Made by a program: the position numbers and the translations under genes. Of a stretch of DNA of 64,000 nucleotides, positions 39,150 to 60,479 are shown piece by piece (position 1 is the first letter of the stretch; every line of letters begins with the position of its first letter). Source of the DNA: Macrostomum hystrix (lineage: Eukaryota; Animalia; Platyhelminthes); NCBI GenBank assembly GCA_950097015.1, contig CATNEN010000025.1, positions 7,688,001 through 7,752,000 of the forward strand. The letters run 5' to 3'. Below the pieces are notes generated by a model. That model was not told the origin of the DNA, ran no database searches, and saw only the letters and a list, made by a program, of their open reading frames with translations.

Positions 39150-42100
39150 ATGGGCAGGCGAGCCGTTGGCACCACTAAACATGGCCGGTTCATGAACCCA
39201 ACTGACCAAGCAAGGAAGGAGGCTAGAAAGCGGGAGCTTAAGAAGAACAAAAAGCAGCGAATGCAGGCAAGTACCTATATGCCTTCCATTAACATATCTT
39301 CAGTTCGGGTATTTCATTCCCAGATCCCCAGTTTGGAGATTCCATTCCCAAATCCTCAGCTTTTGGAGTCCATTCCCAGATCCTCAGTTTGTGAAGTCCA
39401 TTCCCAGGTCATCAGTTTGAGTCCATTCACCGATCCTCAGTTTGGGGATTCCACTACCAGATCCTCAGTTTGGGGACTTTATTCCCAGATCCTCAGTTTG
39501 AGGATTTCATTCCCAGATCCTCAGTTTGTGGAATCCTTTCCCAGATCCTCAGTTTGAGTTCATTCCCAGATCCTCAGTTTGGGGATTCCACTACCAGATC
39601 CTCAGTTTGGGGACTTTATTCCCAGATCCTCAGTTTGAGTTCATTCCCAGATCCTCAGTTTGGGGATTCCACTACCAGATCCTCAGTTTGGGGATTCCAC
39701 TACCAGATCCCCAGTTTGTGGAATCCTTTCCCAGATCCTCAGTTTGAGTTCATTCCCAGATCCTCAGTTTGGGGATTCCACTACCAGATCCTCAGTTTGG
39801 GGATTCCACTACCAGATCCTCAGTTTGGGGATTCCACTACCAGATCCTCAGTTTGGGGATTCCACTACCAGATCCCCAGTTTGTGGAATCCTTTCCCAGA
39901 TCCTCAGTTTGAGTTCATTCCCAGATCCTCAGTTTGAGTTCATTCCCAGATCCTCAGTTTGAGTTCATTCCCAGATCCTCAGTTTGAGTTCATTCCCAGA
40001 TCCTCAGTTTGGGGATTCCACTACCAGATCCTCAGTTTGGGGATTCCACTACCAGATCCTCAGTTTGGGGATTCCACTACCAGATCCTCAGTTTGGGGAT
40101 TCCACTACCAGATCCCCAGTTTGTGGAGTCCATTCCCAGATCCCCAGTGTGGGGATTCCATTCCCAGATCCTCATTTTGTGGAGTCCATTCCCAGATCCT
40201 CAGTTTGGGGATTCCACTACCAGATCCTCAGTTTGGGGACTTTATTCCTAGATCCTCAGTTTGAGAATTTCATTCCCAGATCCTCAGTTTGTGGAATCCT
40301 TTCCCAGATCCTCAGTTTGAGTTCATTCCCAGATCCTCAGTTTGTGGAGGCCATTCCCAGATCCTCATTTTGTGGAGGCCATTCCCAGATCCTTAGTTTG
40401 GGGATTCCACTACCAGATCCTCAGTTTGGGGATTCCACTACCAGATCCCCAGTTTGTGGAATCCTTTCCCAGATCCTCAGTTTGAGTTCATTCCCAGATC
40501 CTCAGTTTGAGTTCATTCCCAGATCCTCAGTTTGAGTTCATTCCCAGATCCTCAGTTTGAGTTCATTCCCAGATCCTCAGTTTGAGTTCATTCCCAGATC
40601 CTCAGTTTGGGGATTCCACTACCAGATCCTCAGTTTGGGGATTCCACTACCAGATCCTCAGTTTGGGGATTCCACTACCAGATCCTCAGTTTGGGGATTC
40701 CACTACCAGATCCCCAGTTTGTGGAGTCCATTCCCAGATCCCCAGTGTGGGGATTCCATTCCCAGATCCTCATTTTGTGGAGTCCATTCCCAGATCCTCA
40801 GTTTGGGGATTCCACTACCAGATCCTCAGTTTGGGGACTTTATTCCTAGATCCTCAGTTTGAGAATTTCATTCCCAGATCCTCAGTTTGTGGAATCCTTT
40901 CCCAGATCCTCAGTTTGAGTTCATTCCCAGATCCTCAGTTTGTGGAGGCCATTCCCAGATCCTCATTTTGTGGAGGCCATTCCCAGATCCTTAGTTTGGG
41001 GATTCCACTACCAGATCCCCAGTTTGTGGATCCTTAGTTTTGCTAAATCGTTTCACATATTATCGAATGCTATATCAACACTTATCCTTGGCACAACATT
41101 CAATGTTTACCAGGTTCGCACCAGCGTATTGAAAGCTCGCCAACCAGATCAGATTCTCATTGAACTAGAAGAATACGACAAAATGGAATTGGACCCGTCC
41201 GCTGAAGGCGGCCTTGGCGGCGGCGGCGCCGTGGGTTTCAGCGATGGAGACCGGCTAGCGTTGCGAGTTATTCAAGAGAAGCGAAGAAAGTTATTAGAGA
41301 CTTATGATCGGATTCTGTCCATGGTGGTAAGTATGTTAGCCGAGTTACTCAGTCCTTCGAAAACTCACTGGCGGCGTGGCTTGGCTATTGTTTGAGGGCG
41401 GTCAATCCTCATCATTAGTAATCCTTAAGTAAGACCAGTAGACCACACTACTTGTCCCCCTGGGGAAAGACCGCGTGGGTCATAGGGATCTTTGTTCTAA
41501 GCATCCCAGTCACCAGGATGACCTTCATCGCCCGTCTGGAGCATCGGCGGCGAACATCGTGACCTTCAACAAAAGTAGCCGTCTCTGAGATGCCGATCGG
41601 GTGCTTTTGTTGATGATCTCGACGGTAAAACAAAATTGTTTTAGCCACTTGACACCCGATGAGAATCGTTGAATATCTCGACTGTATCTGTGAATTGTAG
41701 ATGCAAAAAAAAATCAAATGTGGGTATTAAAAGTACGCCCCTGGTCATTCTACTGATAATGCACTTAAAAAAACTGGGTAAATCCGGATCCTTCTCACGC
41801 AGCAACGCGAAAATGCGGATGACGCCGCCAAATTGTTAACCGCCCGACAAGAATACGAACAGCGGCGTCAGCAGCGGGAGCTATTCTACGAGGAGGTTCG
41901 CGCAGCCGAGAATGTTGATACGAGCAGCATTCCTCTGCCCGCATTACCGCCCGGCGCTATTCAGGCGCCCGGATTTCCGCCAGTGTTCCCCGGCGGCGCT
42001 ATTCCACCGCCATCCAGCGTGTTCGCAGCTGACGGCGGCCTACTGCCCGGCATACTAAAGCCTTCAACAGCTGCCGCAGCTCCGGTGCCAAGGAAGAAGC

Positions 42101-42849
42101 CCGATAGAAAGCCGGCCGGACCGCCGCCCGGACCTCCACCTGATTTGTCCGACTGCGAGGAGGAGGCGCCGCAGCCGCCGCCGGCAGCTCATCTGCAGCC
42201 GCAGAAGACTCTGAGATTTAGCGACGAGCCCGGACCTCCAGGCGAACGGCCAACGGCGGCGCCGATTGCTGTCGCTCCGCCTCAGCCTCCTTCGATTCAT
42301 CCACTTGCACCTGCTGCGGCGGCGGCTGCTGCTGCTGCTGCAGCCGCGGCTGCGGCCGCGGCTTCAATCAGCCATCGGCCACATCCCCAGATGCCGCCGC
42401 CGGCGCCGCTGCCTCTGCCGCCGCAGCCGGCCATAGCCCCGCATCCACCGTCTAGAGCCGCCTCAGCCGCCGACGGCGGTCACCAGCGACGCGGTCAGAC
42501 TAGCATCTCAGCCGCGCCTCAATTGAAGAATCTGATCGGCGATGCCACTAAATTAGTGCCGACCGCGCTCAGAATAAAACGAAACGCCCAACAGCAGCAA
42601 CAGCAGCAGCAACAGTTGCAAAAGCAGCAGCAGCCACAAGCTGTCGGCAATCAGCAGCGACTAATTGGCGTCGGTTCGTCCGCCGGCGTTGTCGGCGCAT
42701 CGTCAGCTGCCCTGACCAGCTCCGGCCTGTTGCCGGACCGCGGCGCCGACGCCTCCTCCGCCAGCCATCACCGGCTGCAGCAGATGAGCAGCAGCGCCAA
42801 GGATGACGCCTACGAGAAGTTCATGCAGGAGTTGCAGGGCCTGCTCTGA
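39150..42849 (+). CDS. WBP11: WW domain-binding protein 11 (spliceosome-associated), 458 aa
   Basis: Exons 39150-39266, 41114-41326 and 41803-42849. N-terminus MGRR..GRFMNPTDQARKEARKRELKKNKKQRM, Pro-rich middle, ISAAPQL..T.LVPTALRIKR and C-terminal KDDAYEKFMQELQGLL. AATAAA at 42982. Confidence 0.95.
39305..41030. repeat. Composite 25-29 bp array (CCCAGATCCTCAGTTT core) in WBP11 intron 1
   Basis: Several unit variants; ORFs recur identically at a 598-bp offset (39959/40557, 39984/40582, 40009/40607). Confidence 0.95.
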
Positions 42850-43139: not shown

Positions 43140-45189
43140 TAAGAGATCTAACCCCAGATCCCCATGCAGAGATTACTAATTCCAGATCCCCATGCAGAGA
43201 TGACTTATTCTAGATCCTCATGCAGAGATGACTAACTCTAGATCTCCATGCAGAGATTACCAACTCTAGATCCCCATGCAGAGATTACTAATTCCAGATC
43301 CCCATGCAGAGATGACTAATTCTAGATCCCCATGCAGAGATTACTAATTCCAGATCCCCATGCAGAGATGACTAATTCCAGATCCCCATGCAGAGATTAC
43401 TAATTCTAGATCCTTATGCAGAGATTACTAATTCCAGATCCTCATGCAGAGATGACTAATTCCAGATCCCCATGCAGAGATTACTAATTCCAGATCCCCA
43501 TGCAGAGATGACTAATTCCAGATCCCCATGCAGAGATGACTAATTCTAGATCCCCATGTAGAGATTACTAATTCCAGATCCCCATTCAGAGATTACTAAT
43601 TCCAGATCCCCATGCAGATATGACTAATTCTAGATCCCCATGTAGAGATTACTAATTCCAGATCCCCATTCAGAGATTACTAATTCCAGATCCCCATGCA
43701 GAGATTACTAATTCTAGATCCTCATGCAGAGATTACTAATTCTAGATCCTCATGCAGAGATGACTAATTCCAGATCCCCATGCAGAGATGACTAATTCTA
43801 GATCCTCATGCAGAGATGACTAATTCCAGATCCCCATGCAGAGATGACTAATTCTAGATCCCCATGCAGAGATGACTAATTCTAGATCCTCATGCAGAGA
43901 TGACTTATTCTAGATCCTCATGCAGAGATGACTAACTCTAGATCTCCATGCAGAGATTACCAACTCTAGATCCCCATGCAGAGATTACTAATTCCAGATC
44001 CCCATGCAGAGATGACTAATTCTAGATCCCCATGCAGAGATGACTAATTCTAGATCCCCATGCAGAGATGACTAATTCTAGATCCCCGTGTAGAGATTAC
44101 TAATTCCAGATCCCTATGCAGAGATGACTAATTCTAGATCCTCATGCAGAGATGACTAATTCCAGATCCCCATGCAGAGATGACTAATTCTAGATCCCCA
44201 TGCAGAGATGACTAATTCTAGATCCTCATGCAGAGATGACTTATTCTAGATCCTCATGCAGAGATGACTAACTCTAGATCTCCATGCAGAGATTACCAAC
44301 TCTAGATCCCCATGCAGAGATTACTAATTCCAGATCCCCATGCAGAGATGACTAATTCTAGATCCCCATGCAGAGATGACTAATTCTAGATCCCCATGCA
44401 GAGATGACTAATTCTAGATCCTCATGCAGAGATTACTAATTCCAGATCCCCATGCAGAGATTACTAATTCTAGATCTCCATGCAGAGATTACCAACTCTA
44501 GATCCCCATGCAGAGATTACTAATTCCAGATCCCCATGCAGAGATTACTAATTCCAGATCCCCATGCAGAGATTACTAATTCTAGATCCCCATGCAGAGA
44601 TGACTAATTCTAGATCCCCGTGTAGAGATTACTAATTCCAGATCCCTATGCAGAGATTACTAATTCCAGATCCCCATGCAGAGATGACTAATTCTAGATC
44701 CCCATGCAGAGATTACTAATTCCAGATCCCCATGCAGAGATGACTAATTCCAGATCCCCATGCAGAGATTACTAATTCTAGATCCTTATGCAGAGATTAC
44801 TAATTCCAGATCCTCATGCAGAGATGACTAATTCCAGATCCCCATGCAGAGATTACTAATTCCAGATCCCCATGCAGATATGACTAATTCTAGATCCCCA
44901 TGTAGAGATTACTAATTCCAGATCCCCATTCAGAGATTACTAATTCCAGATCCCCATGCAGAGATTACTAATTCTAGATCCTCATGCAGAGATGACTAAT
45001 TCTAGATCCTCATGCAGAGATGACTAATTCCAGATCCCCATGCAGAGATTACTAATTCCAGATCCCCATGCAGAGATGACTAATTCTAGATCCCCATGCA
45101 GAGATTACTAATTCCAGATCCCCATGCAGAGATTACTAATTCCAGATCCCCATGCAGAGATTACTAATTCTAGATCCTTATGCAGAGAT
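43140..45189. repeat. 28-bp satellite GAT(T/G)ACTAATTC(C/T)AGATCCCCATGCAGA, left part
   Basis: 28-bp period; interrupted at 45190 by the LTR element. Confidence 0.97.
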
Positions 45190-47579
45190 TGAAATAATGC
45201 GGGTCTTTTGCTAGCCGATGACCGCCCTCATGAAAGATAGGAGTGTGGAAAACGACGATAGAGTCGGAGGTCGATCGCTGCTGCCGCGAGTTGTCGCAGA
45301 GAGGGATGACGAAGGGAGGGATGAAGGGAGAGATGAAGGGAGAGATGAGGCGGTACAAAGGATGCAAGTGAGTGGTCCTATTGGCCTCAGGCTGGCCAGT
45401 CCCACCCAACCCATAGGCCACAGGCATGACTGCCGTGCCCACCCCAAGCAGTGCTCGAAACCGGCTAAAAGTCTAAATAGATGTCGGACTACCCGCAAGC
45501 GAATAGGACAGGGCTAGATAGCCTACTGTCATCAGTAGCATGTTCGTAACTGACTCCTAACTTTGGTAGCAGTGGTCGACTCGGCCTAGGCTCTTGTCTT
45601 AGAAATGCGGAAAGGCTATCGGCAAAGCGGATAATGATCGAAGGTAGCGCCACCACCCAATGCGCCTACGTTGCCACCGCAGACATTGGGAACTTGGGTC
45701 CCCGGAGCTCGCGGCTCCCAGTTTGTCACACAGATCTTAGACAAGCCGAAAAATAGAGCATTCTGTAACTTCCGTTTTAGACTAGGGTGAGAACCCCAGA
45801 ATGGATCGAGTCACGCCTCACAAGGGGATTCCTGAAACTGCGCTACAGTGGTCTAGAAAGGTGGTACTCCGAACCCGAATGAGAAATCCATAGCCAGAAT
45901 CCTACTCATGAGACATTAGACACATTCCTTACATTAGATTGCAGCCTACACATTAAATAACTAGCAAATCGATTCTGTGTGAGTTGAGGAGAACAGAGGC
46001 AGGAGAGATTAAGCTGAACACTGGCTGAGTGATTATGCAAGCAGGAAATTATTAGATCACACCCCTCGCTCCCATGGCGGCGGCAGCGAGAGGCGGGGAA
46101 CAGAAGGGAAACATTAATTGACAAGGGAGGTTGACACGCACTCCTTGATCTGCCAGAAAGAGAGGAAAAACCCGCCAAGGAATTCCCCCACCCCTAGCAG
46201 AGAAACACATGCTACGCTCCGCATATTACTCGCAAATCCCTAGCTCCTTATTACTCTCATGCGCGCTCACAGTTATCCTCCTGCCGCAGCTTTCAGCTAG
46301 GCATCACCAGAGCCCATCCCCCTAATAAGTTAGCCACTCATGATCGAGGGCTGTCTAACGATAAAATAAGAGAAAGTGAAATGCATAGTAAAAAGGATTT
46401 AAGTTGTTATTAAAATGCCCAATAAATTAGATAAGTTGTGAATTAATAGTTTTATTAGGCTAAATCAAATCCCTGCCCTTGCCCTTTTACCCACTAGCTA
46501 AATAGTGAATCCCTTAGGGATAGCAATAACAGTCCGCTGCGCGGGTTACTTATCTGAACACGCTGGTTGACAGGCTGCAGGCCGTCGATCTCGCGGGGGA
46601 GTACAAATGAACAGGAGAAAAGGTGAGGAATTGCTAAGTACAGTTGGCAAGGGGCCAGACTGCAGGGAGCTCAAGGCTCAATTTGGAGCGCACCTAAGGA
46701 GGTGGCTTGCGCTTAAGGGCACTAGCAGGTAGTTGCCTGCTGCTATGATCTGGAGCCTTAGGCTCAGGGACTAGGTGCTAGCCTAGAAGGGGGAGAGTCC
46801 ACGGACCGAGTTCCGGGACCGGACAAGGGAAAAAGGTTGTAAGGGCGGACGGTCCAAAGGGAGGTCCGGGGGAAGGTTAAAGGTGTCCTGGGAAGGTAGG
46901 TAGGTCGCCGGGAAAGGCTCCCGGAAAACAGGAAAAAGGTTGTCCTAGGGACAGCGCAGCGCGCTTTCTTAAATAGTCCTGCAGCTCCGCCAACCTCGCA
47001 TTCATCAAAATAACCCACATGCTCGCCGGCCTGTCAGCGAGGAATCGGGTCGGCATTATGCCACCCCAATTGCCCACTGAAGCGGCGGCGAGAATCGCCA
47101 GATGCCCCACTAGGAGCGTCTGCCGGCAGTCGGCCAATGATTGTGATCCCGCCGGGATATGGGAAGCGCAGGCGCCGACCTGCCTATAGTGTCGTTACAT
47201 GTATCTAAAGGGGGAAAGGTCATAATCGAGCCCCGGCTCGGGTTACAGTAAAGAAGAGGGACATGAAGAATTAAAGCTCACTCTAAACGCATGAGTGATC
47301 CCGACAATCTGATCGCGGCTTGGAGGGGAATTATGACCTAAACTAGTCCATACAGTATTGCTATTTCCGCGATCAGTCACTCCTACAGGGGACTAGACAG
47401 ATCCGAGACAAAGGGAATCGGCGGCTACTTAATTCACCTCCGCCCAATGTCTGGCCCTAAGATTAATGATGGTGTTCTGCGGCCAGCTGCTATGTGGGTC
47501 GCGATTATTGACTTGCTAAAAATTGGAAAAATTAGGCTGGCTCACAACCCCACTCGATTCCGAAGTACACTCCACATCA
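45190..47579 (-). repeat. 3' LTR (2390 bp)
   Basis: Matches 54060-56453; the only differences I found are four 1-bp homopolymer indels. Confidence 0.96.
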
Positions 47580-47600
47580 CACCGCCTTCGCTCACTTTCA
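47580..47600 (-). other. Polypurine tract
   Basis: The minus strand reads GAAAGTGAGCGAAGGCGGTG immediately before the TG of the 3' LTR. Confidence 0.7.
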
Positions 47601-48371
47601 CGTAAGGCACTTACGTGCTTACTGTCAGTAGTGGGGTGTGCCGCGAATCGAGGGGGCAAAAACTTACATTACCCTACTGTATACCGTAAAGAACCTTAAG
47701 AAGAAATCCGCTAGAGAAGAAATCCTAGGTCATCGTACGTAACAATACTGCTATAAATAGATTGTGTGCGAGAGTGTAAAGGTCGGCGCCCCTAGCGACT
47801 AAGGGATAGAGTCCTGAGGGGAGGTGGGTGCGCATTCCGGCTGAGTTAAGGTTGTTCTCGTTGCCAGGGGTGCCGTGTCCCGGCTCGCCTTCTCCTCCAG
47901 GTGGCTGCAGCTGTCCCCGTCTTTCCCTGCCCGGCTTGGTCTCGGTTGCGCAATCCCGGGAGGCTCCGGCCGTTTTCTCCTTAAGTCCGAGGGTCCGGCC
48001 GTGCTCTTCCCCAGGTGGCTCCGGGTTGGTTGGTCCGTTCGCGCCTTCCCGATTCCGTTGCCGGGCCGTGGTAGCCTCTGATTCGCCGCGCGCCCAGGTG
48101 TTTTCAGCTGGCCGGGCCCGAAAATTCTCGTCGGGCCGGTTGCCTAGCCGTTGCGCGCGGCCCAATCGGCGCTGCAGCTGGTCGCAGCTGGGGAAACCGC
48201 TGCTCAGGCCGCTTGTGATGCTGTTGCCGGCCGAGGTGTCTCCTCACCGAAAAGGTCAGGGCCCCAACAACTAAACTGTTACCATGAGCCCCCTAAACTG
48301 GTTCTGTCCGGAATTCCCACTTTGCTCCCATTGGCTGGCGGTTAGACCGCCACGTCTCCCTAAATTAGCCC

Positions 48372-48378
48372 TATAAAA
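48372..48378 (+). promoter_or_regulatory. TATA box (TATAAAA) upstream of the antisense spliced gene in the LTR element
   Basis: CCCTATAAAAGC lies about 200 bp upstream of the ATG at 48570. Confidence 0.5.
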
Positions 48379-48569
48379 GCAAACACTTGGCGCCCCATTA
48401 ACCTCAAGCCTCTTTATCTCTCCAAACAATCACCTATCCTACAGCAAGTTTTTCTAAATTCTCCTCGGCTAACTGCTAAGCTGCAAAAGTAACCTTCGAG
48501 AGTTGCCTGCAATCGCCACCTAGTCTGCGTCGCCCCGATCGCTTAATTACGTGCTCTGATTCTTGCACT

Positions 48570-49209
48570 ATGGCCCAGCCGCAGTCTGGAGAAGAAAGGT
48601 GAGTTATTTGACTTCTACTCGGCCCCCCAAGGCCGGTTATTAAGGATTATTGCGAGGGTTATTGCATAAGAATTAGAATAAACAGAGTCCCCCCCTACCC
48701 ACGGCACGCCATCTATCCCGAGAATCTGAAATTGACCCCGACCCCAAAACTGCGAAAAGGAACCCTTCCTGAGTTAATGATTGATTAAATTGAAAGTTAC
48801 TTAGTCTGCGATTGCCACCACTATTCTTCCATTCCTAATCGGACTACACCACTCTTCGCTTTCAGCAGCTACCCGCTCGGTGCTTTCGAGCCGGAGCCTC
48901 GGCGCCGGGCCAGCTCAGGCGGTCCCATCTCTGTCTCGTTTGTGATGAGTAAGTTGGCATTGACAAAACTACACTTCCCCCCCTCCACTCTGGATGTCAC
49001 CATTTGAAACTTCTGCCTGCAGAACGCCACTGCGCCTTACTAAACTACTCCTCCACCTTGTTTTCGCAGACATAGACGTGCCCGAAGGCCGGGAGGCCGA
49101 CCTGGCGGCCATCGTTTCTAGCCTCATTAGAGGCCCGCTGGGCGTGGCCCTGGCTGTCGGAGTGGCCTTCACTGCTCTTGCGCTGCTGACCCTGATCTAC
49201 TTGATGTGA
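48570..49209 (+). CDS. Putative three-exon 83-aa tail-anchored membrane protein, antisense within the LTR element
   Basis: Exons 48570-48598 (AG|GTGAGT), 48866-48948 (TTTCAG| … |GTAAGT) and 49070-49209 (TTTTCGCAG|), phases 2 and 1, 252 nt with no internal stop. C-terminal hydrophobic helix LGVALAVGVAFTALALLTLIYLM. Confidence 0.62.
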
Positions 49210-50520
49210 CACTGTCCTACTATGCCTACTGACTCGCCGTGCCAGGCTTACTGACTGACCTAACTGCATGCATTTCTGCCATCTCTTATAATGCCACATA
49301 ATACATTACAACATAAACGCCACCATTTGAAACGTAAAACGAAAATTTGCTATCTGTGTCCGACTTCCTTCCTAGATGAAACATTACTGCTCAAATTTTA
49401 CGACTGCCTAGTAACAAAAAACTAACTGATAGACTGTCAATGAGTTTTTAAAACGTCTGGAACCTTAATTCCTACGATTTATTACTATTCTACCCTTCCA
49501 GGTACCTAGATTCGGGCTCCCAGCTGCTAGCTTCTGGCTCCCAAATAATGTTTCTTTTTGTCTTTTCTGACCCTAACAAAAGAAAAATTATCATTTTGAA
49601 ATCTGTCGCTCATTGAAACAGCCAGATTGTCTCCCCTAGAACTTGAATACCTGACCCTACCGGCTTCTTGATTTACAACCGCCCACTCTTTAAACAAACA
49701 TTAAGAAAAACTCCCGAAACATACCACCCCGCTCACTTTAGCGGGTTGGTATACCCCCTAAATAGAAGCCGGCATAGCTAAACTCCCGAAACCAAGCATA
49801 GAGAACATGTAAGATAAGCAAGTTTGCGAAAAGTAGGTGCGAACCCTAGTTTGCAGCAGTTATTACGAAAATATTTCATGCGAAAATTCGTACTAGGGGA
49901 GTTTCACCCCACTAAGTATGTTTTTGGATTTTGATTAGTTTATATGAGTTTTTAAGAGGGTTTGGCGCCGAGATGGCCCTTTTTGATTTGAAACCGCCTT
50001 CCCTCCCTTAAAGAAACATAGAATTTCCCATGGCATACCACCCCGCTCACTTTAGCGGGTTGGTGTCCCTCCTAATTTAGAAGTTGTCCTAAATTGAACT
50101 CCCACAGACCCACCAATATGAACAAGATAAGGCAGAGGTGCCATGCATGATGTGGTGCGATTAAAGTAAAATGCTCTTTAAGAAAAGAAGGTGCATACCC
50201 TAGTTTGCTACAATTAGATAAGCATCTTATGTAAAAAGTATCAGGGGAATTTCACCCCACTATGTGTATTTTTGTGGTTTTGGCTAAAATTATAAGAATT
50301 TTTTTTGTGTGAGATTTTTGGCCAAGGCGGCTTTAGATGAAAAGGGAAAACATGCACAATAGGGGAAAAGGAGCGAAAAGTGCAGAGTGCGCATTATTAT
50401 TAAAGGGGGAGGAAAAAGGAAGGGGACAAAGGGGGAACAGGGGACAGGGGCCTAACAGATGGTGGTCCTGTTCCTACTATTCTACGGTCACTACCTCGGT
50501 TGACCCTACCTTGCGCTTTC

Positions 50521-51102
50521 CTATTCTTCGGCCGCCTCCTGATGGGCGTACTTTCCACCGGTCCCCTCGCTAGCTTCTTCGCCTTCCATCTCTCTCACCA
50601 TGCGGCCGAGCGTGCTGTCCCCGGGCGGTGGCTCTTCGACGATGCGATGTCCGTGGAGCCACTCACGCCAATCCGGGTCTGCCGCTGACCGCAGGGTGAT
50701 CTCTGGCATCCCGATCCGGCGCATGACCAGCTGGTGCTCCAACTCTTCCTGTCCTGGGATCCTCTTGGCTTGCAGCCAGGACGCGAGCTCATCGGGTATG
50801 GTAATGCTCCAATCCGCTGGCGGGCTGTACTCCATCCACCGCAGGTTCCAAGGGAGGTTTGCCTCGTCTTCTCCCCTAGGCGGCAGAGGGTCCCGCTCTT
50901 CGCACCACGCCTGGGCCAGCCACCTAGATTCTGCCAGCTGGCAGGCAAGGGCGAGGTCAACGCCTGCTTGGGCCGCTCGTCCTATCATGGGTAACAGCCA
51001 CAGGCGGACCATCAGCCAGGTCCTCTTCCCTGCCAGTTCGCGGCGATAATCCGTGGCGGCCACTTCTAGCCACCACGCCAGGACGGTGCCAAAGCTTGCC
51101 AT
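50521..51102 (-). CDS. Unknown Trp-rich ORF (193 aa) at the position normally held by pol
   Basis: Intact ORF from ATG 51102 (gacATGg) with 12 Trp. Same strand as gag and preceded by a polypyrimidine tract. No RT, RNase H or integrase motifs recognised. Confidence 0.6.
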   Translation of the reverse strand: MASFGTVLAWWLEVAATDYRRELAGKRTWLMVRLWLLPMIGRAAQAGVDLALACQLAESRWLAQAWCEERDPLPPRGEDEANLPWNLRWMEYSPPADWSITIPDELASWLQAKRIPGQEELEHQLVMRRIGMPEITLRSAADPDWREWLHGHRIVEEPPPGDSTLGRMVREMEGEEASEGTGGKYAHQEAAEE

Positions 51103-51254: not shown

Positions 51255-51804
51255 TTAAAATTTAGCCTTCCGCCTGAGTGAAAAGGGGAGAAATTGACGA
51301 TATATGATTAAGTGGCGCGAGTCAAAGTCAACGATGGCATGATGATGAGCCAACCAGGAGGCACCGAGCAGGGGAGAGCAGTCGCCCTCAACCACTAAGA
51401 ACACGGTGTCCAGCGCTTCGGTGCCAACCTGTAATTTGACCCTGACCTGCGCCTGTGCAACAATGGGTGTTCCATTATAAGCAAAAAGAGAAAATTGCGG
51501 GGGTTCGAATGGGTAGTGTTGAAAGATTGATGACAACGAGTCCGGGAGCACATTTACCATAGACCCTGTGTCGATGAGGAGGTCTAGGGGTTGTCCCTTC
51601 CACTTCCAAGGCGACCCACACCTCACTAAGCTGCTCAGAGCGATTTGGGCGGGTTCGCACTCGGGTGGGGACTCGGCCGAGTGCATTCACTCGGACTTCT
51701 CGGAGGTCGGAGGCGGCGGCTGCCGCCGCTCCGACTGTCGAGCTGCGGGCTGGGTCTCGGGGCCGTGGGACTGCCTCCAATTGGCGGCCCCGTTCCCATT
51801 TCCC
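51255..51804 (-). CDS. pro: Retroviral-type aspartic protease, predicted -1 frameshift product of gag, with one apparent 1-bp indel near 51597
   Basis: LDLLIDTGSMVNVL catalytic motif and SPLLGASWL C-terminal motif. The N-terminal strand VWVALEVEG sits in the adjacent frame and joins QPLDLL across a GGG run. Stop at 51255 directly after the domain. Confidence 0.85.
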
Positions 51805-52747
51805 TTCGCCACCTCACGATTCGCTCCGCCAGCAGCCCCGTGTTCTACACGCTTTCGGGTGCCACTGATGCCCATTTGGGTTGTGGGCAGAGAGGGGGAA
51901 TGGAGTTGGGCTTGGCTTCCCGCAGCTGCTGAGAAATCTCGGCTAGCTGCTGGGTCACCTTGGTTAATTCTGCCAGCAGCCCGTGCTGCGGCTCTGGCTG
52001 GTCCGGTTTCGTCATCTGAACCTGTCCTGATTTGGCGCACTCGCCGGCGAGGGTCCCGCTCCACCGCCATTTCATGCGCCTGCGTGGCAGCACGCAGCTC
52101 GGCGGCGGCGGCCTCAGCCGTGGCAAATTCCATCCGCATGATGGGTGCCAACACCTCGGGTGGGGCCACTATCCCCTCCATAAAAGAGGCCAGCAAAGCG
52201 CGCTCGAAGTGCACACCGTGGCCATTGGGGGTGGCCTGCAGGGCCGCTGTTCTGAGTCTATCGGCGAAGGCGGGGTACGTCTCGTCCCGTCCTGCTTCAA
52301 ATTACGCCCGCTCAGCAGCCGGGCGTAGGGGGTGCAGGCGCCACTCAGGGCCTCGGTCAGATCCTGCACGAATCTAAGGTAGGTCACCCGGCGGGGCAAC
52401 CCTAGCGCTTCGGTGAGGGGCTCGCCACTCAGGTGAGCGAGGAGGGTGAGGATTTTCTCCTCCTCGGATTCGACACCCTCCGCCTCCAGCTTCAGGTTAA
52501 ATCGGCGAAGCCAGAGGGGGAAGGAATCCTTTTCGGGATCGAGGGGTTCAATAGAAACTTTGACCCGGTGGTTCCGGGGTCGTCGCACCTCTAGCCGCTC
52601 TAAAAGCAGCGCCAGGCGCTCCACGGGGTCGGCTTGCTGTGCTGCAGCAGCCGCTGGGGGTTCGGCGCGCGCCGCAGCTGCGGCGCGGCCTCTGGGTGGG
52701 CGGTTGACTCCAACCACTTCCACCACCTCACCCTCCTGGTCGGACAT
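51687..52747 (-). CDS. gag: Gag-like capsid protein, split by one apparent 1-bp indel near 52285
   Basis: DSFPLWLRRFNLKLE…KILTLLAHLSGEPL…LKQ/DETYPAFADRLR…LLASFMEGI is a retrotransposon-gag-like pattern. ORFs 52169..52747 and 51687..52214 overlap at a GGG run. No CCHC knuckle. Confidence 0.8.
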
Positions 52748-54039
52748 TTTCGGCCAAAGAGGAATGAGGATTTTGCGAATGAAAAAGAGGGGGGGTCTGT
52801 CGCTAATGCAACAATGGGGGAAAAGGAGAAGAGGAAAAACAGATCACGACTGGAGATCGTGCGGGGGGGAAAGAAAATGAGCCTGAGCTGTCAAGTCCAG
52901 CCCTGATTAATGATGCGGCGAATTCCCTACTCCTAGAGAGCAACCCTACCGCAAAAAGGATCAAAGATCAGTGAGAGAGAAAAGGGCCCAGGGCCCTGGC
53001 TAGCTTTGCTTCCAGCCTTGGCTACTGACAAACTGTTTTGCGCGCACTCAAGGTTTGGGACATAGAAGTCTAGGTTTTAACTTAGCACTCGTTCTGCAAC
53101 CCTATAGCGGACTGTTGCACTATAGGTACGGCGGGGTCAGTACTACTGCAAGCTTGCGCCTGCAACAGCCTATCACCCTACCTTGGAAAGTACACGCCTC
53201 AATAAGATACTCAGAGAAGGGATAATCCCCGACTCGTTCAGGGAGTCATCGGTTCCCGGCTGCATTGCCGGGGGCCCCCCCTCGCGATTAACGAGACTGG
53301 GAAGCCCAGGGGGGATATACCTGGGATCTCGCTCGGATAGGAGTCCATGGCTAAAGCCTGGCTACCCCATTTAGAAAACCCCTCAAAGAATCTCTTAGAA
53401 AAACGTGCCGACCGAATTCTAGCCCATACTTGAAGTAGGCAGTTTCGAGAGGCGGGCACGGGGGTCGCTAGACCTCCCTCAGAAGTCCCACCTCCCTAAC
53501 TGTTCCCCACCAAAGTCAGACTTGGCCAAAGTTATGTGACACTTTCAAAATCAGGTACACGTAAGCAGGCCCGCAAGCTGCCCAAGAGAACCAATCCCCG
53601 GTGCTCGGCGAGTCATCGATTCCCGGCTGCATTGCCGGGGGCTCCCCTCGCTCGGTTAGAAGGCCGAACGGCGTTGCCCGGTCCCTCGTTAAGAATGGCC
53701 CCTCCCAGATCAATCACGCGGGAAAACCCCACAGACAGTGCCCGACTCCTGCAGCAGCCACTAACCCGAAGACACTCTAGCATGAAGTCCGCTCACACAG
53801 CCTACTCATAGTAGAAAGTCACTAATCAGAATTTTGGAAACTCTAACAAAAGCCTAAATTAAATTGAAACCAAATTGCAACTGTTCGGAAATTTATTGAC
53901 AGTCACTAGAACTGAGATAAGATTTAGGCATACGGAAGATGAAATCTAGAAGAAGCCCTTACGGCTAACTACCACAGAAATCTGCGGCGCTAAACTAACA
54001 ATTGAAAAAAATTCAGGTTCGTTTCGCGCCCTTTCTAAA

Positions 54040-54058
54040 TCCCACCTCGATGCCACCA
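54040..54058 (-). other. Primer binding site, tRNA-Leu-like
   Basis: TGGTGGCATCGAGGTGGGA lies 1 nt after the 5' LTR. It is complementary to a 3' end …UCCCACC..UGCCACCA resembling metazoan tRNA-Leu; the tRNA identity is an inference. Confidence 0.8.
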
Positions 54059-54059
54059 T

Positions 54060-56453
54060 TGAAATAATGCGGGTCTTTTGCTAGCCGATGACCGCCCTCA
54101 TGAAAGATAGGAGTGTGGAAAACGACGATAGAGTCGGAGGTCGATCGCTGCTGCCGCGAGTTGTCGCAGAGAGGGATGACGAAGGGAGGGATGAAGGGAG
54201 AGATGAAGGGAGAGATGAGGCGGTACAAAGGATGCAAGTGAGTGGTCCTATTGGCCTCAGGCTGGCCAGTCCCACCCAACCCATAGGCCACAGGCATGAC
54301 TGCCGTGCCCCCACCCAAGCAGTGCTCGAAACCGGCTAAAAGTCTAAATAGATGTCGGACTACCCGCAAGCGAATAGGACAGGGCTAGATAGCCTACTGT
54401 CATCAGTAGCATGTTCGTAACTGACTCCTAACTTTGGTAGCAGTGGTCGACTCGGCCTAGGCTCTTGTCTTAGAAATGCGGAAAGGCTATCGGCAAAGCG
54501 GATAATGATCGAAGGTAGCGCCACCACCCAATGCGCCTACGTTGCCACCGCAGACATTTGGGAACTTGGGTCCCCGGAGCTCGCGGCTCCCAGTTTGTCA
54601 CACAGATCTTAGACAAGCCGAAAAATAGAGCATTCTGTAACTTCCGTTTTAGACTAGGGTGAGAACCCCAGAATGGATCGAGTCACGCCTCACAAGGGGA
54701 TTCCTGAAACTGCGCTACAGTGGTCTAGAAAGGTGGTACTCCGAACCCGAATGAGAAATCCATAGCCAGAATCCTACTCATGAGACATTAGACACATTCC
54801 TTACATTAGATTGCAGCCTACACATTAAATAACTAGCAAATCGATTCTGTGTGAGTTGAGGAGAACAGAGGCAGGAGAGATTAAGCTGAACACTGGCTGA
54901 GTGATTATGCAAGCAGGAAATTATTAGATCACACCCCTCGCTCCCATGGCGGCGGCAGCGAGAGGCGGGGAACAGAAGGGAAACATTAATTGACAAGGGA
55001 GGTTGACACGCACTCCTTGATCTGCCAGAAAGAGAGGAAAAACCCGCCAAGGAATTCCCCCACCCCTAGCAGAGAAACACATGCTACGCTCCGCATATTA
55101 CTCGCAAATCCCTAGCTCCTTATTACTCTCATGCGCGCTCACAGTTATCCTCCTGCCGCAGCTTTCAGCTAGGCATCACCAGAGCCCATCCCCCTAATAA
55201 GTTAGCCACTCATGATCGAGGGCTGTCTAACGATAAAATAAGAGAAAGTGAAATGCATAGTAAAAAGGATTTAAGTTGTTATTAAAATGCCCAATAAATT
55301 AGATAAGTTGTGAATTAATAGTTTTATTAGGCTAAATCAAATCCCTGCCCTTGCCCTTTTACCCACTAGCTAAATAGTGAATCCCTTAGGGATAGCAATA
55401 ACAGTCCGCTGCGCGGGTTACTTATCTGAACACGCTGGTTGACAGGCTGCAGGCCGTCGATCTCGCGGGGGGAGTACAAATGAACAGGAGAAAAGGTGAG
55501 GAATTGCTAAGTACAGTTGGCAAGGGGCCAGACTGCAGGGAGCTCAAGGCTCAATTTGGAGCGCACCTAAGGAGGTGGCTTGCGCTTAAGGGCACTAGCA
55601 GGTAGTTGCCTGCTGCTATGATCTGGAGCCTTAGGCTCAGGGACTAGGTGCTAGCCTAGAAGGGGGAGAGTCCACGGACCGAGTTCCGGGACCGGACAAG
55701 GGAAAAAGGTTGTAAGGGCGGACGGTCCAAAGGGAGGTCCGGGGGAAGGTTAAAGGTGTCCTGGGAAGGTAGGTAGGTCGCCGGGAAAGGCTCCCGGAAA
55801 ACAGGAAAAAGGTTGTCCTAGGGACAGCGCAGCGCGCTTTCCTTAAATAGTCCTGCAGCTCCGCCAACCTCGCATTCATCAAAATAACCCACATGCTCGC
55901 CGGCCTGTCAGCGAGGAATCGGGTCGGCATTATGCCACCCCAATTGCCCACTGAAGCGGCGGCGAGAATCGCCAGATGCCCCACTAGGAGCGTCTGCCGG
56001 CAGTCGGCCAATGATTGTGATCCCGCCGGGATATGGGAAGCGCAGGCGCCGACCTGCCTATAGTGTCGTTACATGTATCTAAAGGGGGAAAGGTCATAAT
56101 CGAGCCCCGGCTCGGGTTACAGTAAAGAAGAGGGACATGAAGAATTAAAGCTCACTCTAAACGCATGAGTGATCCCGACAATCTGATCGCGGCTTGGAGG
56201 GGAATTATGACCTAAACTAGTCCATACAGTATTGCTATTTCCGCGATCAGTCACTCCTACAGGGGACTAGACAGATCCGAGACAAAGGGAATCGGCGGCT
56301 ACTTAATTCACCTCCGCCCAATGTCTGGCCCTAAGATTAATGATGGTGTTCTGCGGCCAGCTGCTATGTGGGTCGCGATTATTGACTTGCTAAAAATTGG
56401 AAAAATTAGGCTGGCTCACAACCCCACTCGATTCCGAAGTACACTCCACATCA
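54060..56453 (-). repeat. 5' LTR (2394 bp)
   Basis: Direct repeat of 45190-47579, adjacent to the PBS. Confidence 0.96.
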
Positions 56454-58860
56454 AGATTACTAATTCCAGATCCTCATGCAGAGATGACTAATTCTAGATC
56501 CCCATGCAGAGATTACTAATTCTAGATCCTCATGCAGAGATGACTAATTCCAGATCCCAATGCAGAGATGACTAATTCTAGATCCCCATGCAGAGATGAC
56601 TAATTCTAGATCCCCATGCAGAGATGACTAATTCTAGATCCCCATGCAGAGATGACTAATTCTAGATCCCCATGCAGAGATGACTAATTCTAGATCCCCA
56701 TGCAGAGATTACTAATTCCAGATCCCCATGCAGAGATTACTAATTCTAGATCCCCATGCAGAGATTACTAATTCTAGATCCCCATGTAGAGATTACTAAT
56801 TCTAGATCCCCATGCAGAGATTACTAATTCTAGATCCCCATGCAGAGATTACTAATTCTAGATCCTCATGCAGAGATTACTAATTCCAGATCCCCATGCA
56901 GAGATTACTAATTCCAGATCCCCATGCAGAGATGACTAATTCTAGATCCCCATGCAGAGATGACTAATTCTAGATCCCCATGCAGAGATGACTAATTCTA
57001 GATCCCCGTGTAGAGATTACTAATTCCAGATCCCTATGCAGAGATTACTAATTCCAGATCCCCATGCAGAGATGACTAATTCCAGATCCCCATGCAGAGA
57101 TTACTAATTCCAGATCCCCATGCAGAGATTACTAACTCTAGATCCCCATGCAGAGATTACTAATTCTAGATCCCCATGCAGAGATTACTAATTCCAGATC
57201 CTCATGCAGAGATTACTAATTCCAGATCCCCATGCAGAGATTACTAATTCCAGATCCCCATGCAGAGATTACTAATTCCAGATCCCCATGCAGAGATTAC
57301 TAATTCTAGATCCTCATGCAGAGATGACTAATTCTAGATCCCCATGCAGAGATTACTAATTCCAGATCCACATGCAGAGATGACTAATTCTAGATCCCCA
57401 TGCAGAGATTACTAATTCCAGATCCCCATGCAGAGATTACTAATTCCAGATCCCCATGCAGAGATGACTAATTCCAGATCCCCATGCAGAGATTACTAAT
57501 TCTAGATCCTCATGCAGAGATGACTAATTCTAGATCCTCATGCAGAGATGACTAATTCCAGATCCCCATGCAGAGATGACTAATTCTAGATCCCCATGCA
57601 GAGATGACTAATTCTAGATCCTCATTCAGAGATTACTAATTCCAGATCCCCATGCAGAGATTACTAATTCTAGATCCCCATGTAGAGATTACTAATTCCA
57701 GATCCCCATTCAGAGATTACTAATTCTAGATCCCCATTCAGAGATTACTAATTCCAGATCCCCATGCAGAGATTACTAATTCCAGATCCCCATGTAGAGA
57801 TTACTAATTCTAGATCCCCATGCAGAGATTACTAATTCCAGATCCCCATGCAGAGATTACTAATTCCAGATCCCCATGCAGAGATTACTAATTCCAGATC
57901 CCCATGCAGAGATTACTAATTCCAGATCCCCATGCAGAGATTACTAATTCCAGATCCCCATGCAGAGATTACTAATTCCAGATCCCCATGCAGAGATTGC
58001 TAATTCCAGATCCCCATGCAGAGATTACTAATTCCAGATCCCCATGTAGAGATTACTAATTCCAGATCCCCATGCAGAGATTGCTAATTCCAGATCCCCA
58101 TGCAGAGATTGCTAATTCCAGATCCCCATGTAGAGATTACTAATTCTAGATCCCCATGTAGAGATTACTAATTCTAGATCCTCATGCAGAGATTACTAAT
58201 TCTAGATCCTCATGCAGAGATTACTAATTCCAGATCCCCATGTAGAGATTACTAATTCCAGATCCCCATGCAGAGATTACTAATTCTAGATCCCCATGCA
58301 GAGATTACTAATTCTAGATCCCCATGCAGCGATGACTAATTCCACATCCCCATGCAGAGATGACTAATTCCAGATCCCCATGCAGAGATGACTAATTCCA
58401 CATCCCCATGCAGAGATGACTAATTCCAGATCCCCATGCAGAGATGACTAATTCCAGATCCCCATGCAGAGATGACTAATTCCAGATCCCCATGCAGAGA
58501 TGACTAATTCTAGATCCCCATGCAGAGATTACTAATTCTAGATCCCCATTCAGAGATGACTAATTCTAGATCCCCATGCAGAGATTACTAATTCCAGATC
58601 CCCATGCAGAGATTACTAATTCCAGATCCTCATGCAGAGAGGACTAATTCCAGATCCCCATGTAGAGATTACTAATTCTAGATCTCCATTCTGAGATTAC
58701 TAATTCCAGATCCCCATTTAGAGATTAATCCCATATCCTCATGCAGAGATTAATCCCAGATCCTCATGCAGAGATTAATCCCAGATCCTCATGCAGAGAT
58801 TAATCCCAGATCTTCATGCAGAGATTAATCCCAGATCCTCATCCAGCAATTACTAATCTC
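56454..58860. repeat. 28-bp satellite, right part
   Basis: Resumes in register after the TSD; degenerates to shorter units near 58730-58860. Confidence 0.97.
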
Positions 58861-59128: not shown

Positions 59129-59994
59129 TCAGTTCTGCAGCCCGCACACCATATTCGCTGGCAGAGCGGCGTCTATCTGCTTGGGATACGGCAGATTCAA
59201 ATTTTTCATGATTTGAACAAACTCGCTCTTGGACTTTGTCAGGCGTGGATTAAACTGCTTCTCTTCTGACACGGAGGTGACTGTCTGACCTGTGTAGTCA
59301 TGCGCAGGATACAGCAAATAGTGCTCAGGCAGGCTGAGTATCTGGCTGTGAACGGAATCGTACAGGCGCTCCGGGGAGCCCTGTTGAAAGTCCGTCCGGC
59401 CGCAGTCGCGGATCAGCAGGGCATCGCCTGTGAATGCCATGCCGTGACTGTGCAGTACGTAGGTTAGGCAGCCGTCCGTGTGACCCGGTGTGGAGCGAAC
59501 CTCCAACTGCAGCTTGCCAAACTCGATCTGCAATTATTGGTCCCGAGTTCGAGCTCTACACTGCTTCAATAGGAATCCCACAGTTGCCATCCTAGTCAGT
59601 TGCTAGGGGAACTGGATTCTACAGATGGAATCCCACATTTCCCATCCCAGATTCGCATTCTCACGTTATCCCCATGTTTGACTCGCACATCTGCCCTGGC
59701 TTGGCTGACCTCCGCAATGACACTCTGGCAGCCTGGCAGGAAGCCTTTGATCTTGCCGCTGCCCGTCACGTGATCCGCGTGTACATGCGTATTGATGACG
59801 TACTTTAGAGTCAAGCCGAGCTGATCAACAATTTTTAGATCGCGATCCGCAGTCTCAATCACTGGATCGATTAGCACAGCCTCCTTGGTAGCCTCGCAAG
59901 CCAATAGATAGGTATAGGTGCAGCTGGTGTCCTCAAACAGTTGGCGAAACACCAAACTTGATGCCAGCTCCTCAGCCAAAAATCTCTTGTACAT
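59129..59994 (-). CDS. ETHE1: Persulfide dioxygenase (metallo-beta-lactamase fold), 242 aa
   Basis: Exons 59994-59665 and 59527-59129, phase 0. Motifs [63 protein letters not shown]. Confidence 0.96.
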
Positions 59995-60479
59995 GTTTTC
60001 GTCTTTGTTGCTTTATTTTTCAACAAACAAAAGTAAACACAGCTGTAGGTCACTGGCTTAGAAGTGGGTGTGGTTTTGCCGCGGACTATGGAGTGTGTAT
60101 AACTATATTTATGTTTGTTTGTCGTGACATCAAAGAGCAATCTGTACAGAGCCTGTACACTCACATGGAGGGCTACAAAAGATTCGCAGGTGGGGTTGTT
60201 CTACATAGTTGATGCGCTCATTTGTGATGCTGAGGGTGGACGCACTTGTTTACGGCACACTGTACGCGCCACTTTGTACACACACGAATGCACACGGGCG
60301 CCCGTCAATTAGAAATTTTCTATCCATTTTCATCCTTTTTGCTAAATTTACTTTTCCACTCACCCTATGATTATATTGTTCTCAGCTAACTGACAGCAAT
60401 ACAAATAACCCAAAACAATAGGTTCACTGGAAGGATGACTCTTACCGCAATCTTGTCATTATATCGACTCATGTTTGTT

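What the first reader, a model, noticed from the sequence alone, without database searches (positions are those of the whole stretch)
48372..49209. Intron-containing antisense gene for an 83-aa tail-anchored membrane microprotein inside the retroelement
Seen: a TATAAAA box; two introns with near-consensus donors (GTGAGT, GTAAGT), pyrimidine-rich acceptors and a TACTAAAC branch-like site near 49038; and matching phases. The product is MAQPQSGEESSYPLGAFEPEPRRRASSGGPISVSFVMNIDVPEGREADLAAIVSSLIRGPLGVALAVGVAFTALALLTLIYLM. Known: only an antisense orientation lets introns survive retrotransposition. Inference: an element-borne membrane accessory factor (particle tethering or egress, toxin or addiction, host modulation) or a captured host gene. 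The ORF track shows only its last exon.
Basis: partly seen in the sequence, partly recalled or inferred. Interest (0 to 1): 0.82.

Follow-up and report, generated by a model that had tools for sequence, protein, structure and literature searches.

The report
Backwards membrane microgene inside jumping gene
A virus-like jumping gene carries on its opposite strand a small intron-containing gene whose middle exon is conserved at the protein level in a related copy and which is predicted to make an 83-residue membrane-anchored protein, likely a tether between the element's particles and cell membranes; backwards extra genes are already known in such elements, so the product, not the layout, is the new part.

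Summary
TATA box, first ATG, two GTRAGT donors, two acceptors and a branch site give an open 83-aa frame at the stated coordinates; 0 of 2000 shuffles gave such a model. The gene lies antisense between the last sense ORF and the 3' LTR of a young 11.3-kb LTR retrotransposon with gag-like, protease and orphan ORFs but no RT/RNase H/integrase. A contig in 1 of 4 runs (one study) skips intron 2 exactly (GT..AG). A related copy differs at 13 exon-2 bases, 9 synonymous (pS 0.42, pN 0.07, p=7e-4), which indirectly requires intron-1 splicing; that join was not seen. The C-terminal helix is strongly hydrophobic with no tail; no homolog was found. It is not a sORF2/FAST fusogen. Most likely an element-borne, ER-inserted, cytosol-facing adaptor for Gag particles (function inferred, about 0.4; real coding gene about 0.85). 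Antisense extra genes here are known (Grande gene23, Boty brtn), and this scan noted intron-containing ones on other DNA before; a tail-anchored microprotein as cargo was not found in print.

The parts
54060..56453 (-). 5' LTR (TG...CA, 2394 bp)
   Evidence: 99.8% identical to the 3' LTR (1 mismatch, 4 one-base gaps)
54041..54058 (-). primer-binding site starting TGG one base after the LTR; tRNA-Leu type by recall, not tested
51687..52747 (-). gag-like ORF, split over two frames in this copy (52843-52169 and 52301-51687)
   Evidence: no Pfam hit; weak capsid rows in fold search, Z 3.2-3.5
51255..51686 (-). aspartic protease ORF, in frame behind the gag stop codon
   Evidence: Pfam gag-asp_proteas E 2.7e-4, below the curated cut-off; DTG motif at 51572
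50521..51102 (-). orphan ORF3, 193 aa from its first Met
   Evidence: no hit; model pLDDT 40
48372..48378 (+). TATA box of the antisense gene (predicted promoter)
   Evidence: contigs of diverged copies still align over 48330-48411
48570..48598 (+). exon 1 coding part (29 nt, phase 2)
48599..48865 (+). intron 1 (267 nt, GTGAGT...CAG; alternative acceptor 3 nt on); predicted, join not seen
48866..48948 (+). exon 2 (83 nt), under purifying selection
48949..49069 (+). intron 2 (121 nt, GTAAGT...CAG, branch site TACTAAAC at 49038); skipped exactly in a contig of run X3
49070..49209 (+). exon 3: amphipathic helix then C-terminal hydrophobic helix (about residues 61-83, 49138-49206) and stop
49300..49317 (+). 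variant poly(A)-signal hexamers (AATACA 49300, CATAAA 49312); predicted
   Evidence: a related copy shows canonical hexamers just before 49315 (table 7)
47580..47599 (-). purine-rich tract before the 3' LTR (weak PPT)
45190..47579 (-). 3' LTR; 4-bp target duplication AGAT at 45186-45189 and 56454-56457, inside a 28-bp satellite

Best explanation
The element carries on its opposite strand its own intron-containing, protein-coding accessory gene, whose 83-aa product is predicted to be a tail-anchored membrane protein that likely works as a cytosol-facing adaptor docking the element's Gag particles on ER-derived membranes. Shown: position and orientation inside the LTR element, the open spliced frame, one exact intron-2 join, synonymous bias in exon 2, a tail-less hydrophobic C-terminal helix. 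Inferred: transcription from the internal TATA promoter and use of intron 1; post-translational insertion into the ER by the GET/TRC route because the helix is very hydrophobic and has no basic tail (established knowledge, recalled); action in trans; Gag as partner (untested). The introns persist because the copied genomic RNA is the other strand and cannot splice them. That it is a real coding gene is about 0.85; the tether role is about 0.4.
For: Splice model open and unique. Contig of run X3 joins 48948 to 49070, GT..AG, 30 letters on the short side, no ambiguity; library type is not on record, but an exact GT..AG join on the + strand needs splicing either way. One related copy (X1 record 6, all 18 of its differences listed; the same rows in X2, X3, X4) has 13 exon-2 changes: 10 at third positions, 9 synonymous, 2 codons altered; only the predicted frame of six shows this without a stop; pS 0.42 vs pN 0.07, Fisher p 7e-4; donor and acceptor unchanged in it. 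Unspliced, exon 1 stops at once and no Met feeds exon 2 before its last codons, so selection on exon 2 implies an upstream exon spliced in phase 2. 0 of the 12 indels shown (of 25) fall in coding exons, p about 0.04. A far more diverged copy (X4 record 27, joints assigned to it by equal depth) aligns only in islands that include exon-2 core 48896-48928 and acceptor plus exon-3 start 49067-49106. Kyte-Doolittle 2.1-2.4 over residues 59-83, negative over the first 21 windows. Window-identical contigs cover the helix and stop in all 4 runs. Weak hint: a contig form that jumps 48682 to 49380 (X1, X3) shows that cis functions do not need exons 2-3 in this form, which fits a trans-acting product.
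Against: No partner, location or function was tested; nothing links the protein to Gag except carriage in the same element. The intron-1 join was not seen in 4 of 4 runs (contigs show presence, not absence), the intron-2 join in only 1 of 4, all from one study. Selection is shown for exon 2 only: of the exon-3 differences shown (5 bases, table cut at 40 of 82 rows) 2 codons are synonymous and 2 not, and diverged copies stop aligning at 49155-49170, so conservation of most of the membrane helix is untested. The 5' part of intron 2 is more conserved (5 of 89) than exon-2 synonymous sites (9 of about 22; p 1e-4), which suggests a mosaic copy or a cis signal and limits the dN/dS figure. The element lacks pol, so it is a passenger of an unseen helper; the helper was not available for study.
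Confidence: 0.4

Rival explanations
1. The product is a membrane-bound host modulator or self-defence factor (for example damping an ER stress, immune or cell-death pathway, excluding rival elements, or a poison-type selfish factor) and never touches Gag.
For: Same coding and topology evidence. Small viral membrane proteins often act so (Vpu, papillomavirus E5; recalled). Own promoter uncouples it from gag expression, as for Grande gene23 (PMC7264820 passages). Amphipathic helix before the anchor (moment 0.54).
Against: No homolog or motif points to a host target; no antidote-like second gene among Met-started ORFs of the internal region.
Confidence: 0.25
2. A host gene captured with its introns at the DNA level and carried as a passenger, its conservation being left over from host function.
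For: Host-like gene anatomy (TATA, two GT-AG introns, poly(A)-like hexamers); antisense orientation would keep introns.
Against: Several diverged versions all rejoin element sequence on both sides, so the gene has diversified inside the family; no second copy elsewhere in the window; no homolog found, although the host's own proteins seem missing from these libraries (searches also empty).
Confidence: 0.12
3. The working product is the antisense RNA (self-silencing or regulation, as for micropia), and the peptide is incidental.
For: Non-coding antisense RNAs from internal promoters are known (PMC7264820 passages); intron 2 is unexpectedly conserved and holds an LTR-end/PBS look-alike on the genomic strand.
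Against: 9 of 13 exon-2 changes are synonymous in the predicted frame; the gene does not overlap gag or protease.
Confidence: 0.1
4. A sORF2/FAST-like fusogen or minimal envelope that spreads the element between cells.
For: Small (83 aa, inside the 63-107 aa range in PMC11952523), one membrane helix, amphipathic stretch, env-like position.
Against: No MGxxxS/T start, no cytoplasmic tail, no polybasic patch after the helix (against PMC11952523 section 8); predicted topology leaves nothing outside the cell.
Confidence: 0.06
5. Chance splice-like motifs; no gene.
For: Intron-1 join unseen; no homologs; all read support from one study.
Against: Exact intron-2 join, synonymous bias, 0 of 2000 shuffles.
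Confidence: 0.05

Closest known systems
Antisense additional ORFs between pol and 3' LTR (aORF-3R): maize Grande gene23, rice RIRE2, Retand TRP28 ORFs (PMC7264820, passages and section 5; PMC11963269, passages)
   Same: Antisense, between the coding block and the 3' LTR, conserved among copies, internal promoter (shown for gene23), function unknown.
   Different: Those are plant, long ORFs with nuclear or DNA-binding products; the passages name no introns ('intron' occurs 0 times in both texts) and no membrane product. Here an animal-type host, two introns, 83 aa, membrane anchor, and a pol-less element.
brtn of Boty-like Ty3/gypsy elements of Botrytis (Zhao 2011; paper not held; seen only as cited in PMC7264820, PMC4227169, 10.1101/2021.04.13.439636)
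   Same: Small antisense gene in the same slot of a gypsy element.
   Different: Fungal; whether brtn is spliced could not be read; no sequence comparison was made.
Retroviral antisense proteins HTLV-1 HBZ and HIV-1 ASP (PMC10186651, passages)
   Same: HBZ comes from a spliced antisense RNA; ASP is an antisense membrane protein found on the viral envelope.
   Different: HBZ is transcribed from the 3' LTR and is nuclear; ASP is about 190 aa, has two helices and overlaps env. Here the predicted promoter is about 0.8 kb inside the element and the gene overlaps no sense ORF.
sORF2/FAST-like proteins of MDG1-group LTR retrotransposons (PMC11952523, passages and section 8)
   Same: Tiny one-helix membrane protein carried by an env-less LTR element.
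   Different: Central helix, ectodomain, myristoylation motif, polybasic cytoplasmic tail; none is present here.
Small transmembrane ORF3s of bdelloid Vesta elements (PMC5408684, passages) and the antisense ORF of mussel MchSLE-1 (PMC10974842, abstract and passages)
   Same: Animal LTR elements with extra membrane ORFs near the 3' end, or with an antisense mRNA.
   Different: Vesta ORF3s are 210-230 aa downstream of pol; the MchSLE-1 antisense RNA starts in the 3' LTR and no intron is mentioned.

Membership tests
LTR retrotransposon (non-autonomous, Ty3/gypsy-like) | Two direct LTRs, TG...CA, with target-site duplication | tested here: met
   99.8% alike, TG...CA, 4-bp AGAT duplication
LTR retrotransposon (non-autonomous, Ty3/gypsy-like) | PBS after the 5' LTR and PPT before the 3' LTR | tested here: inconclusive
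   TGG-led PBS-like site present, purine tract only moderately pure; no tRNA at hand to pair
LTR retrotransposon (non-autonomous, Ty3/gypsy-like) | gag and aspartic protease | tested here: inconclusive
   Protease Pfam E 2.7e-4, under cut-off, DTG motif; gag-like ORF has no Pfam hit, 7 of 50 fold rows are retro-capsids at Z 3.2-3.5 on a pLDDT-54 model
Autonomous Ty3/gypsy element | RT, RNase H and integrase in gypsy order | tested here: not met
   No long ORF left for them and no signature motifs in six frames; superfamily and clade therefore cannot be assigned by RT
aORF-3R (antisense extra gene before the 3' LTR) | Antisense to gag, between the last sense ORF and the 3' LTR | tested here: met
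   48372-49209 + between ORF3 (ends 50521) and LTR (47579)
aORF-3R (antisense extra gene before the 3' LTR) | Coding conservation among copies | tested here: met
   Exon 2: 9 of 13 changes synonymous in one related copy; exon 3 not settled
aORF-3R (antisense extra gene before the 3' LTR) | Present in all or most copies of the family | tested here: inconclusive
   Several versions present, but one contig form jumps 48682 to 49380 with unknown letters between; no genome to count copies
aORF-3R (antisense extra gene before the 3' LTR) | Own internal antisense promoter | not testable with these tools
   TATA box present; contigs cannot show starts or strand
Tail-anchored membrane proteins | One hydrophobic helix at the extreme C-terminus, no N-terminal signal | tested here: met
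   KD 2.1-2.4 for windows starting at residues 59-65, negative for windows 1-21; hydropathy only, no dedicated predictor; windows 49-58 reach 1.4-1.9, so a hairpin is not excluded
Tail-anchored membrane proteins | Post-translational insertion with cytosolic N-terminus | not testable with these tools
   needs cell or in vitro assay
sORF2/FAST fusogens | N-terminal MGxxxS/T myristoylation motif | tested here: not met
   Second residue is Ala; motif is in 4 of 6 sORF2
sORF2/FAST fusogens | Central helix followed by a cytoplasmic tail with a polybasic patch | tested here: not met
   Helix runs to the stop codon

The most novel reading that the evidence does not exclude
Animal LTR retrotransposons carry a hidden class of intron-split, antisense microgenes for tail-anchored membrane proteins, invisible to ORF-based annotation, which give envelope-less elements a membrane handle for particle docking, trafficking or host control; this pol-less element keeps gag, protease and this gene because it sells particle and membrane functions to its helper.
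Probability: 0.3. Interest if true: 0.75.

Novelty: new variant of a known kind. Interest (0 to 1): 0.5.

Why it matters
What the antisense extra genes of LTR retrotransposons do is an open question (PMC7264820), and the described ones are nuclear or DNA-binding. A selected, spliced 83-aa membrane protein widens that repertoire to membranes, where it is poorly known how envelope-less elements place and move their particles. Because two introns cut it into exons of 29, 83 and 140 nt, ORF-length screens of element consensus sequences would miss it, so such genes may be under-counted. It is small and easy to tag, so location and partners are directly testable.

Tried and rejected
No whole genome is held, so copies could not be counted. 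No RNA holder listed: the four runs have no library record. No poly(A) loose end among the 24 of 37 loose-end rows shown. Homolog searches used exon 3 alone, so exons 1-2 were never searched: none at E<=1 among 10 candidates of 44-142 aa; 1 hit among 1.84 billion representatives, an 871-aa repeat protein of bacterial surface type whose score sums six repeats, rejected; ESM Atlas best 0.83, generic short membrane peptides, recognition 1681, rejected; no Pfam hit. ORF3: nothing (one hit at E 0.017, under cut-off); model unusable, not searched by fold. Gag-like ORF: nothing; fold search inconclusive. Protease against PDB sequences: retroviral-like aspartic protease 1 at E 0.2-0.33 only. Rfam: one chance match, E 0.54. 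A 21-base exon-1/donor pattern matched one metagenome contig, L001, with no likeness beyond the pattern: chance. Intron-2 region folds no better than shuffles on the genomic strand, z +1.1. An ATG at 48994 inside intron 2 would give a 71-aa unspliced form but is changed in the related copy: rejected as the main product. Minus-strand coding as the cause of the third-position bias: the matching frame has a stop and 5 altered codons. Cover over gag-protease-ORF3 is lower than on its flanks, but contig depth cannot rank parts, so it is not used. No canonical heat-shock element in the LTR. Host species not determined; PMC12801592 (parts 1-2 of 6, supplement 1 of 5) classifies Macrostomum elements by RT and would miss a pol-less element; its other four supplements were not read. 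No complex prediction was run. Ten paper searches listed no report of a spliced antisense tail-anchored gene in an LTR element; the library lacks most subscription papers, including Zhao 2011.

Full report
Observation. TATAAAA lies at 48372, the first ATG after it at 48570, donors GTGAGT at 48599 and GTAAGT at 48949, a TACTAAAC branch-like site at 49038. Exons 48570-48598, 48866-48948 and 49070-49209, each intron ending in CAG, give an open frame of 83 codons; a second CAG three bases on gives an in-frame 82-aa form. On the + strand of the element's internal region these two donors are the only GTRAGT, and each is followed by the next pyrimidine-rich acceptor. Of 2000 dinucleotide shuffles of 47580-50520, none gave a TATA-ATG-two-intron model of 60 aa or more; the criteria were set after seeing the gene, so this is an upper bound on surprise.

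Surroundings. The gene sits in an 11.3-kb LTR retrotransposon on the - strand: LTRs 54060-56453 and 45190-47579 are 99.8% alike (1 mismatch, 4 one-base gaps), start TG and end CA, and are flanked by a 4-bp AGAT duplication inside a 28-bp satellite, so the insertion is young. A TGG-led primer-binding site follows the 5' LTR and a moderately purine-rich tract precedes the 3' LTR. Coding on the - strand: a gag-like ORF split over two frames in this copy, an in-frame protease ORF behind its stop (Pfam gag-asp_proteas E 2.7e-4, under cut-off), and a 193-aa orphan ORF3. There is no RT, RNase H or integrase; single contigs of 1.6-2.6 kb run across this block in each of the 4 runs with 4-12 substitutions and 5-10 small gaps, so the pol-less layout is not an assembly accident, while the frame break may be error or decay. 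The gag call rests on position, on recalled sequence look and on weak fold rows (7 of 50 rows are retroviral CA, PNMA2, HERV-K Gag or dArc2 at Z 3.2-3.5). The antisense gene lies between ORF3 and the 3' LTR and overlaps neither.

Read evidence. Four runs of one study hold the stretch; their library type is not on record and only contigs are kept. One contig of run X3 (125 nt, depth 8.7) joins 48948 to 49070, skipping exactly the 121-nt intron 2, GT..AG, with 30 letters on the short side and no ambiguity. It is the only GT..AG joint of the 12 listed, and whether the run is RNA or DNA such a join needs + strand splicing. The intron-1 join appears in none of the 4 runs, and the X3 contig begins 12 nt inside intron 1; contigs show presence, not absence, and a thin link beside a high-depth exon-1 end is the kind that assemblers prune (recalled), but the join remains unshown. 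Most contigs are unspliced, as expected of the element's genomic strand.

Selection. The runs hold several versions of the gene. For one (X1 record 6, 48854-49037) all 18 differences are listed and recur in X2, X3 and X4. Thirteen lie in exon 2: 10 at third codon positions, 9 synonymous, 2 codons altered (Ala to Thr, Ser to Ala); of six frames only the predicted one shows this without a stop. pS is 0.42, pN 0.07, Fisher p 7e-4. Donor and acceptor are unchanged. Read unspliced, exon 1 meets a stop at the donor and no Met feeds exon 2 before its last codons, so selection on exon 2 implies an upstream exon joined in phase 2, which is what exon 1 supplies. None of the 12 indels shown (of 25) is in a coding exon (p about 0.04). 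A much more diverged copy (X4 record 27; joints assigned to it by equal depth) aligns only in islands: part of intron 1, exon-2 core 48896-48928, acceptor plus exon-3 start 49067-49106, and 49360 onward. Other contigs carry different sequence between about 48411 and 48566-48576 but share the TATA region and the exon-1 end with its donor. Against: exon 3 is not settled (5 bases shown, 2 synonymous and 2 altered codons; table cut at 40 of 82 rows); diverged copies stop aligning at 49155-49170, so most of the membrane helix is untested in them; the 5' part of intron 2 is more conserved (5 of 89) than exon-2 synonymous sites (p 1e-4), which points to a mosaic copy or a cis signal, and intron 2 does hold a look-alike of the LTR-end/PBS junction followed by a purine tract on the genomic strand; one contig form jumps 48682 to 49380 with unknown letters between, so it lacks or has replaced exons 2-3.

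The protein. Residues 1-25 are polar, a beta-prone stretch spans the exon 2-3 junction, an amphipathic helix (moment 0.54) precedes Arg-Gly-Pro, and a hydrophobic helix (Kyte-Doolittle 2.1-2.4) runs to the last residue with no tail. That is the layout of a tail-anchored protein; high hydrophobicity without a basic tail favours ER insertion by GET/TRC with the N-terminus in the cytosol (recalled). A helical hairpin is not excluded. Exon 3 has no homolog (one spurious repeat protein) or 49; since gag and ORF3 found none either, the host lineage is probably not in the libraries and the blank says little.

Mechanism. Most likely an accessory gene of the element: transcribed from an internal promoter on the strand opposite the genomic RNA, so that reverse transcription copies it with its introns; spliced; translated into an ER-inserted, cytosol-facing adaptor. 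A soluble 60-residue arm on a membrane anchor in an element that has kept gag and protease but dropped pol fits best a handle that docks Gag particles on membranes (0.4). Host modulation or self-defence is the main rival (0.25); captured passenger (0.12), regulatory RNA (0.1), fusogen (0.06) and chance (0.05) follow. Only the gene and its topology are supported by data here; the partner is inference.

Comparison. Antisense extra genes between pol and the 3' LTR are described for maize Grande (own promoter, nuclear product), RIRE2, Retand and fungal Boty (PMC7264820, passages and section 5; PMC11963269, passages), with function unknown and a call to look for spliced antisense transcripts. Retroviruses have spliced antisense HBZ and membrane-bound ASP (PMC10186651, passages). 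A mussel Steamer-like element makes an antisense mRNA from its 3' LTR (PMC10974842, abstract and passages). sORF2/FAST proteins differ in every defining feature tested (PMC11952523, passages and section 8). Passages of PMC5408684, PMC6431247, PMC8220671, PMC13524379, PMC4227169 and 10.1101/2021.04.13.439636 were read for context. Unchecked notes of this scan describe intron-containing antisense genes in the same slot in other genomes, with zinc-cluster, OTU, DUF3716 or transposase-like products; none with a small membrane product came up.

Verdict. A real, selected, spliced antisense microgene in a non-autonomous LTR element: a new variant of a known kind. Interest 0.5.

Noticed in passing
window 48985-49013 and 49317-49336, - strand: Two look-alikes of the LTR-end/PBS junction inside the element; the one in intron 2 is followed by a purine tract and TG, like a miniature LTR-PBS-PPT-LTR join. 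May explain why intron 2 is so conserved.
   Followed up: partly
window 50521-51102, - strand: Orphan 193-aa ORF3 directly behind the protease, Trp-rich, predicted helical, no homolog or usable model.
   Followed up: partly
window 51255-52747, - strand: Protease ORF follows the gag-like ORF in frame across a single TGA (readthrough-like); the gag-like ORF is split over two frames in this copy.
   Followed up: no
window 48412-48569 and 48683-49379: Contig forms in the runs jump these two stretches (letters between not known) while keeping the TATA region and the exon-1 end with its donor: either a deletion derivative or a sister element with another cargo.
   Followed up: no
window 49664-49953 / 49979-50303 and 53243-53285 / 53610-53651: Internal duplicated blocks (72-76% and 93% alike) in the non-coding parts of the element; no Rfam match.
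   Followed up: partly
window 43156-45190 and 56454-58827: The element is inserted into a 28-bp satellite, with the AGAT duplication in register with the repeat unit.
   Followed up: partly
window 59129-60012, - strand: Host gene in two ORF pieces with metallo-beta-lactamase fold hits; looks like ETHE1 persulfide dioxygenase (name recalled), one predicted intron.
   Followed up: no
window 41782-42849, + strand: Pro/Ala/Gln-rich last exon that looks like the C-terminus of WBP11 (name recalled; no Pfam hit).
   Followed up: no
window 14603-14961, 15785-16103, 25253-25567, 31755-32099: Four copies, in both orientations, of a 300-350 bp dispersed repeat at 81-87% identity.
   Followed up: no
window 1-41031: More than twenty tandem arrays with units of 13-46 bp, several over 2 kb, which create the long ORFs in the ORF list.
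   Followed up: no
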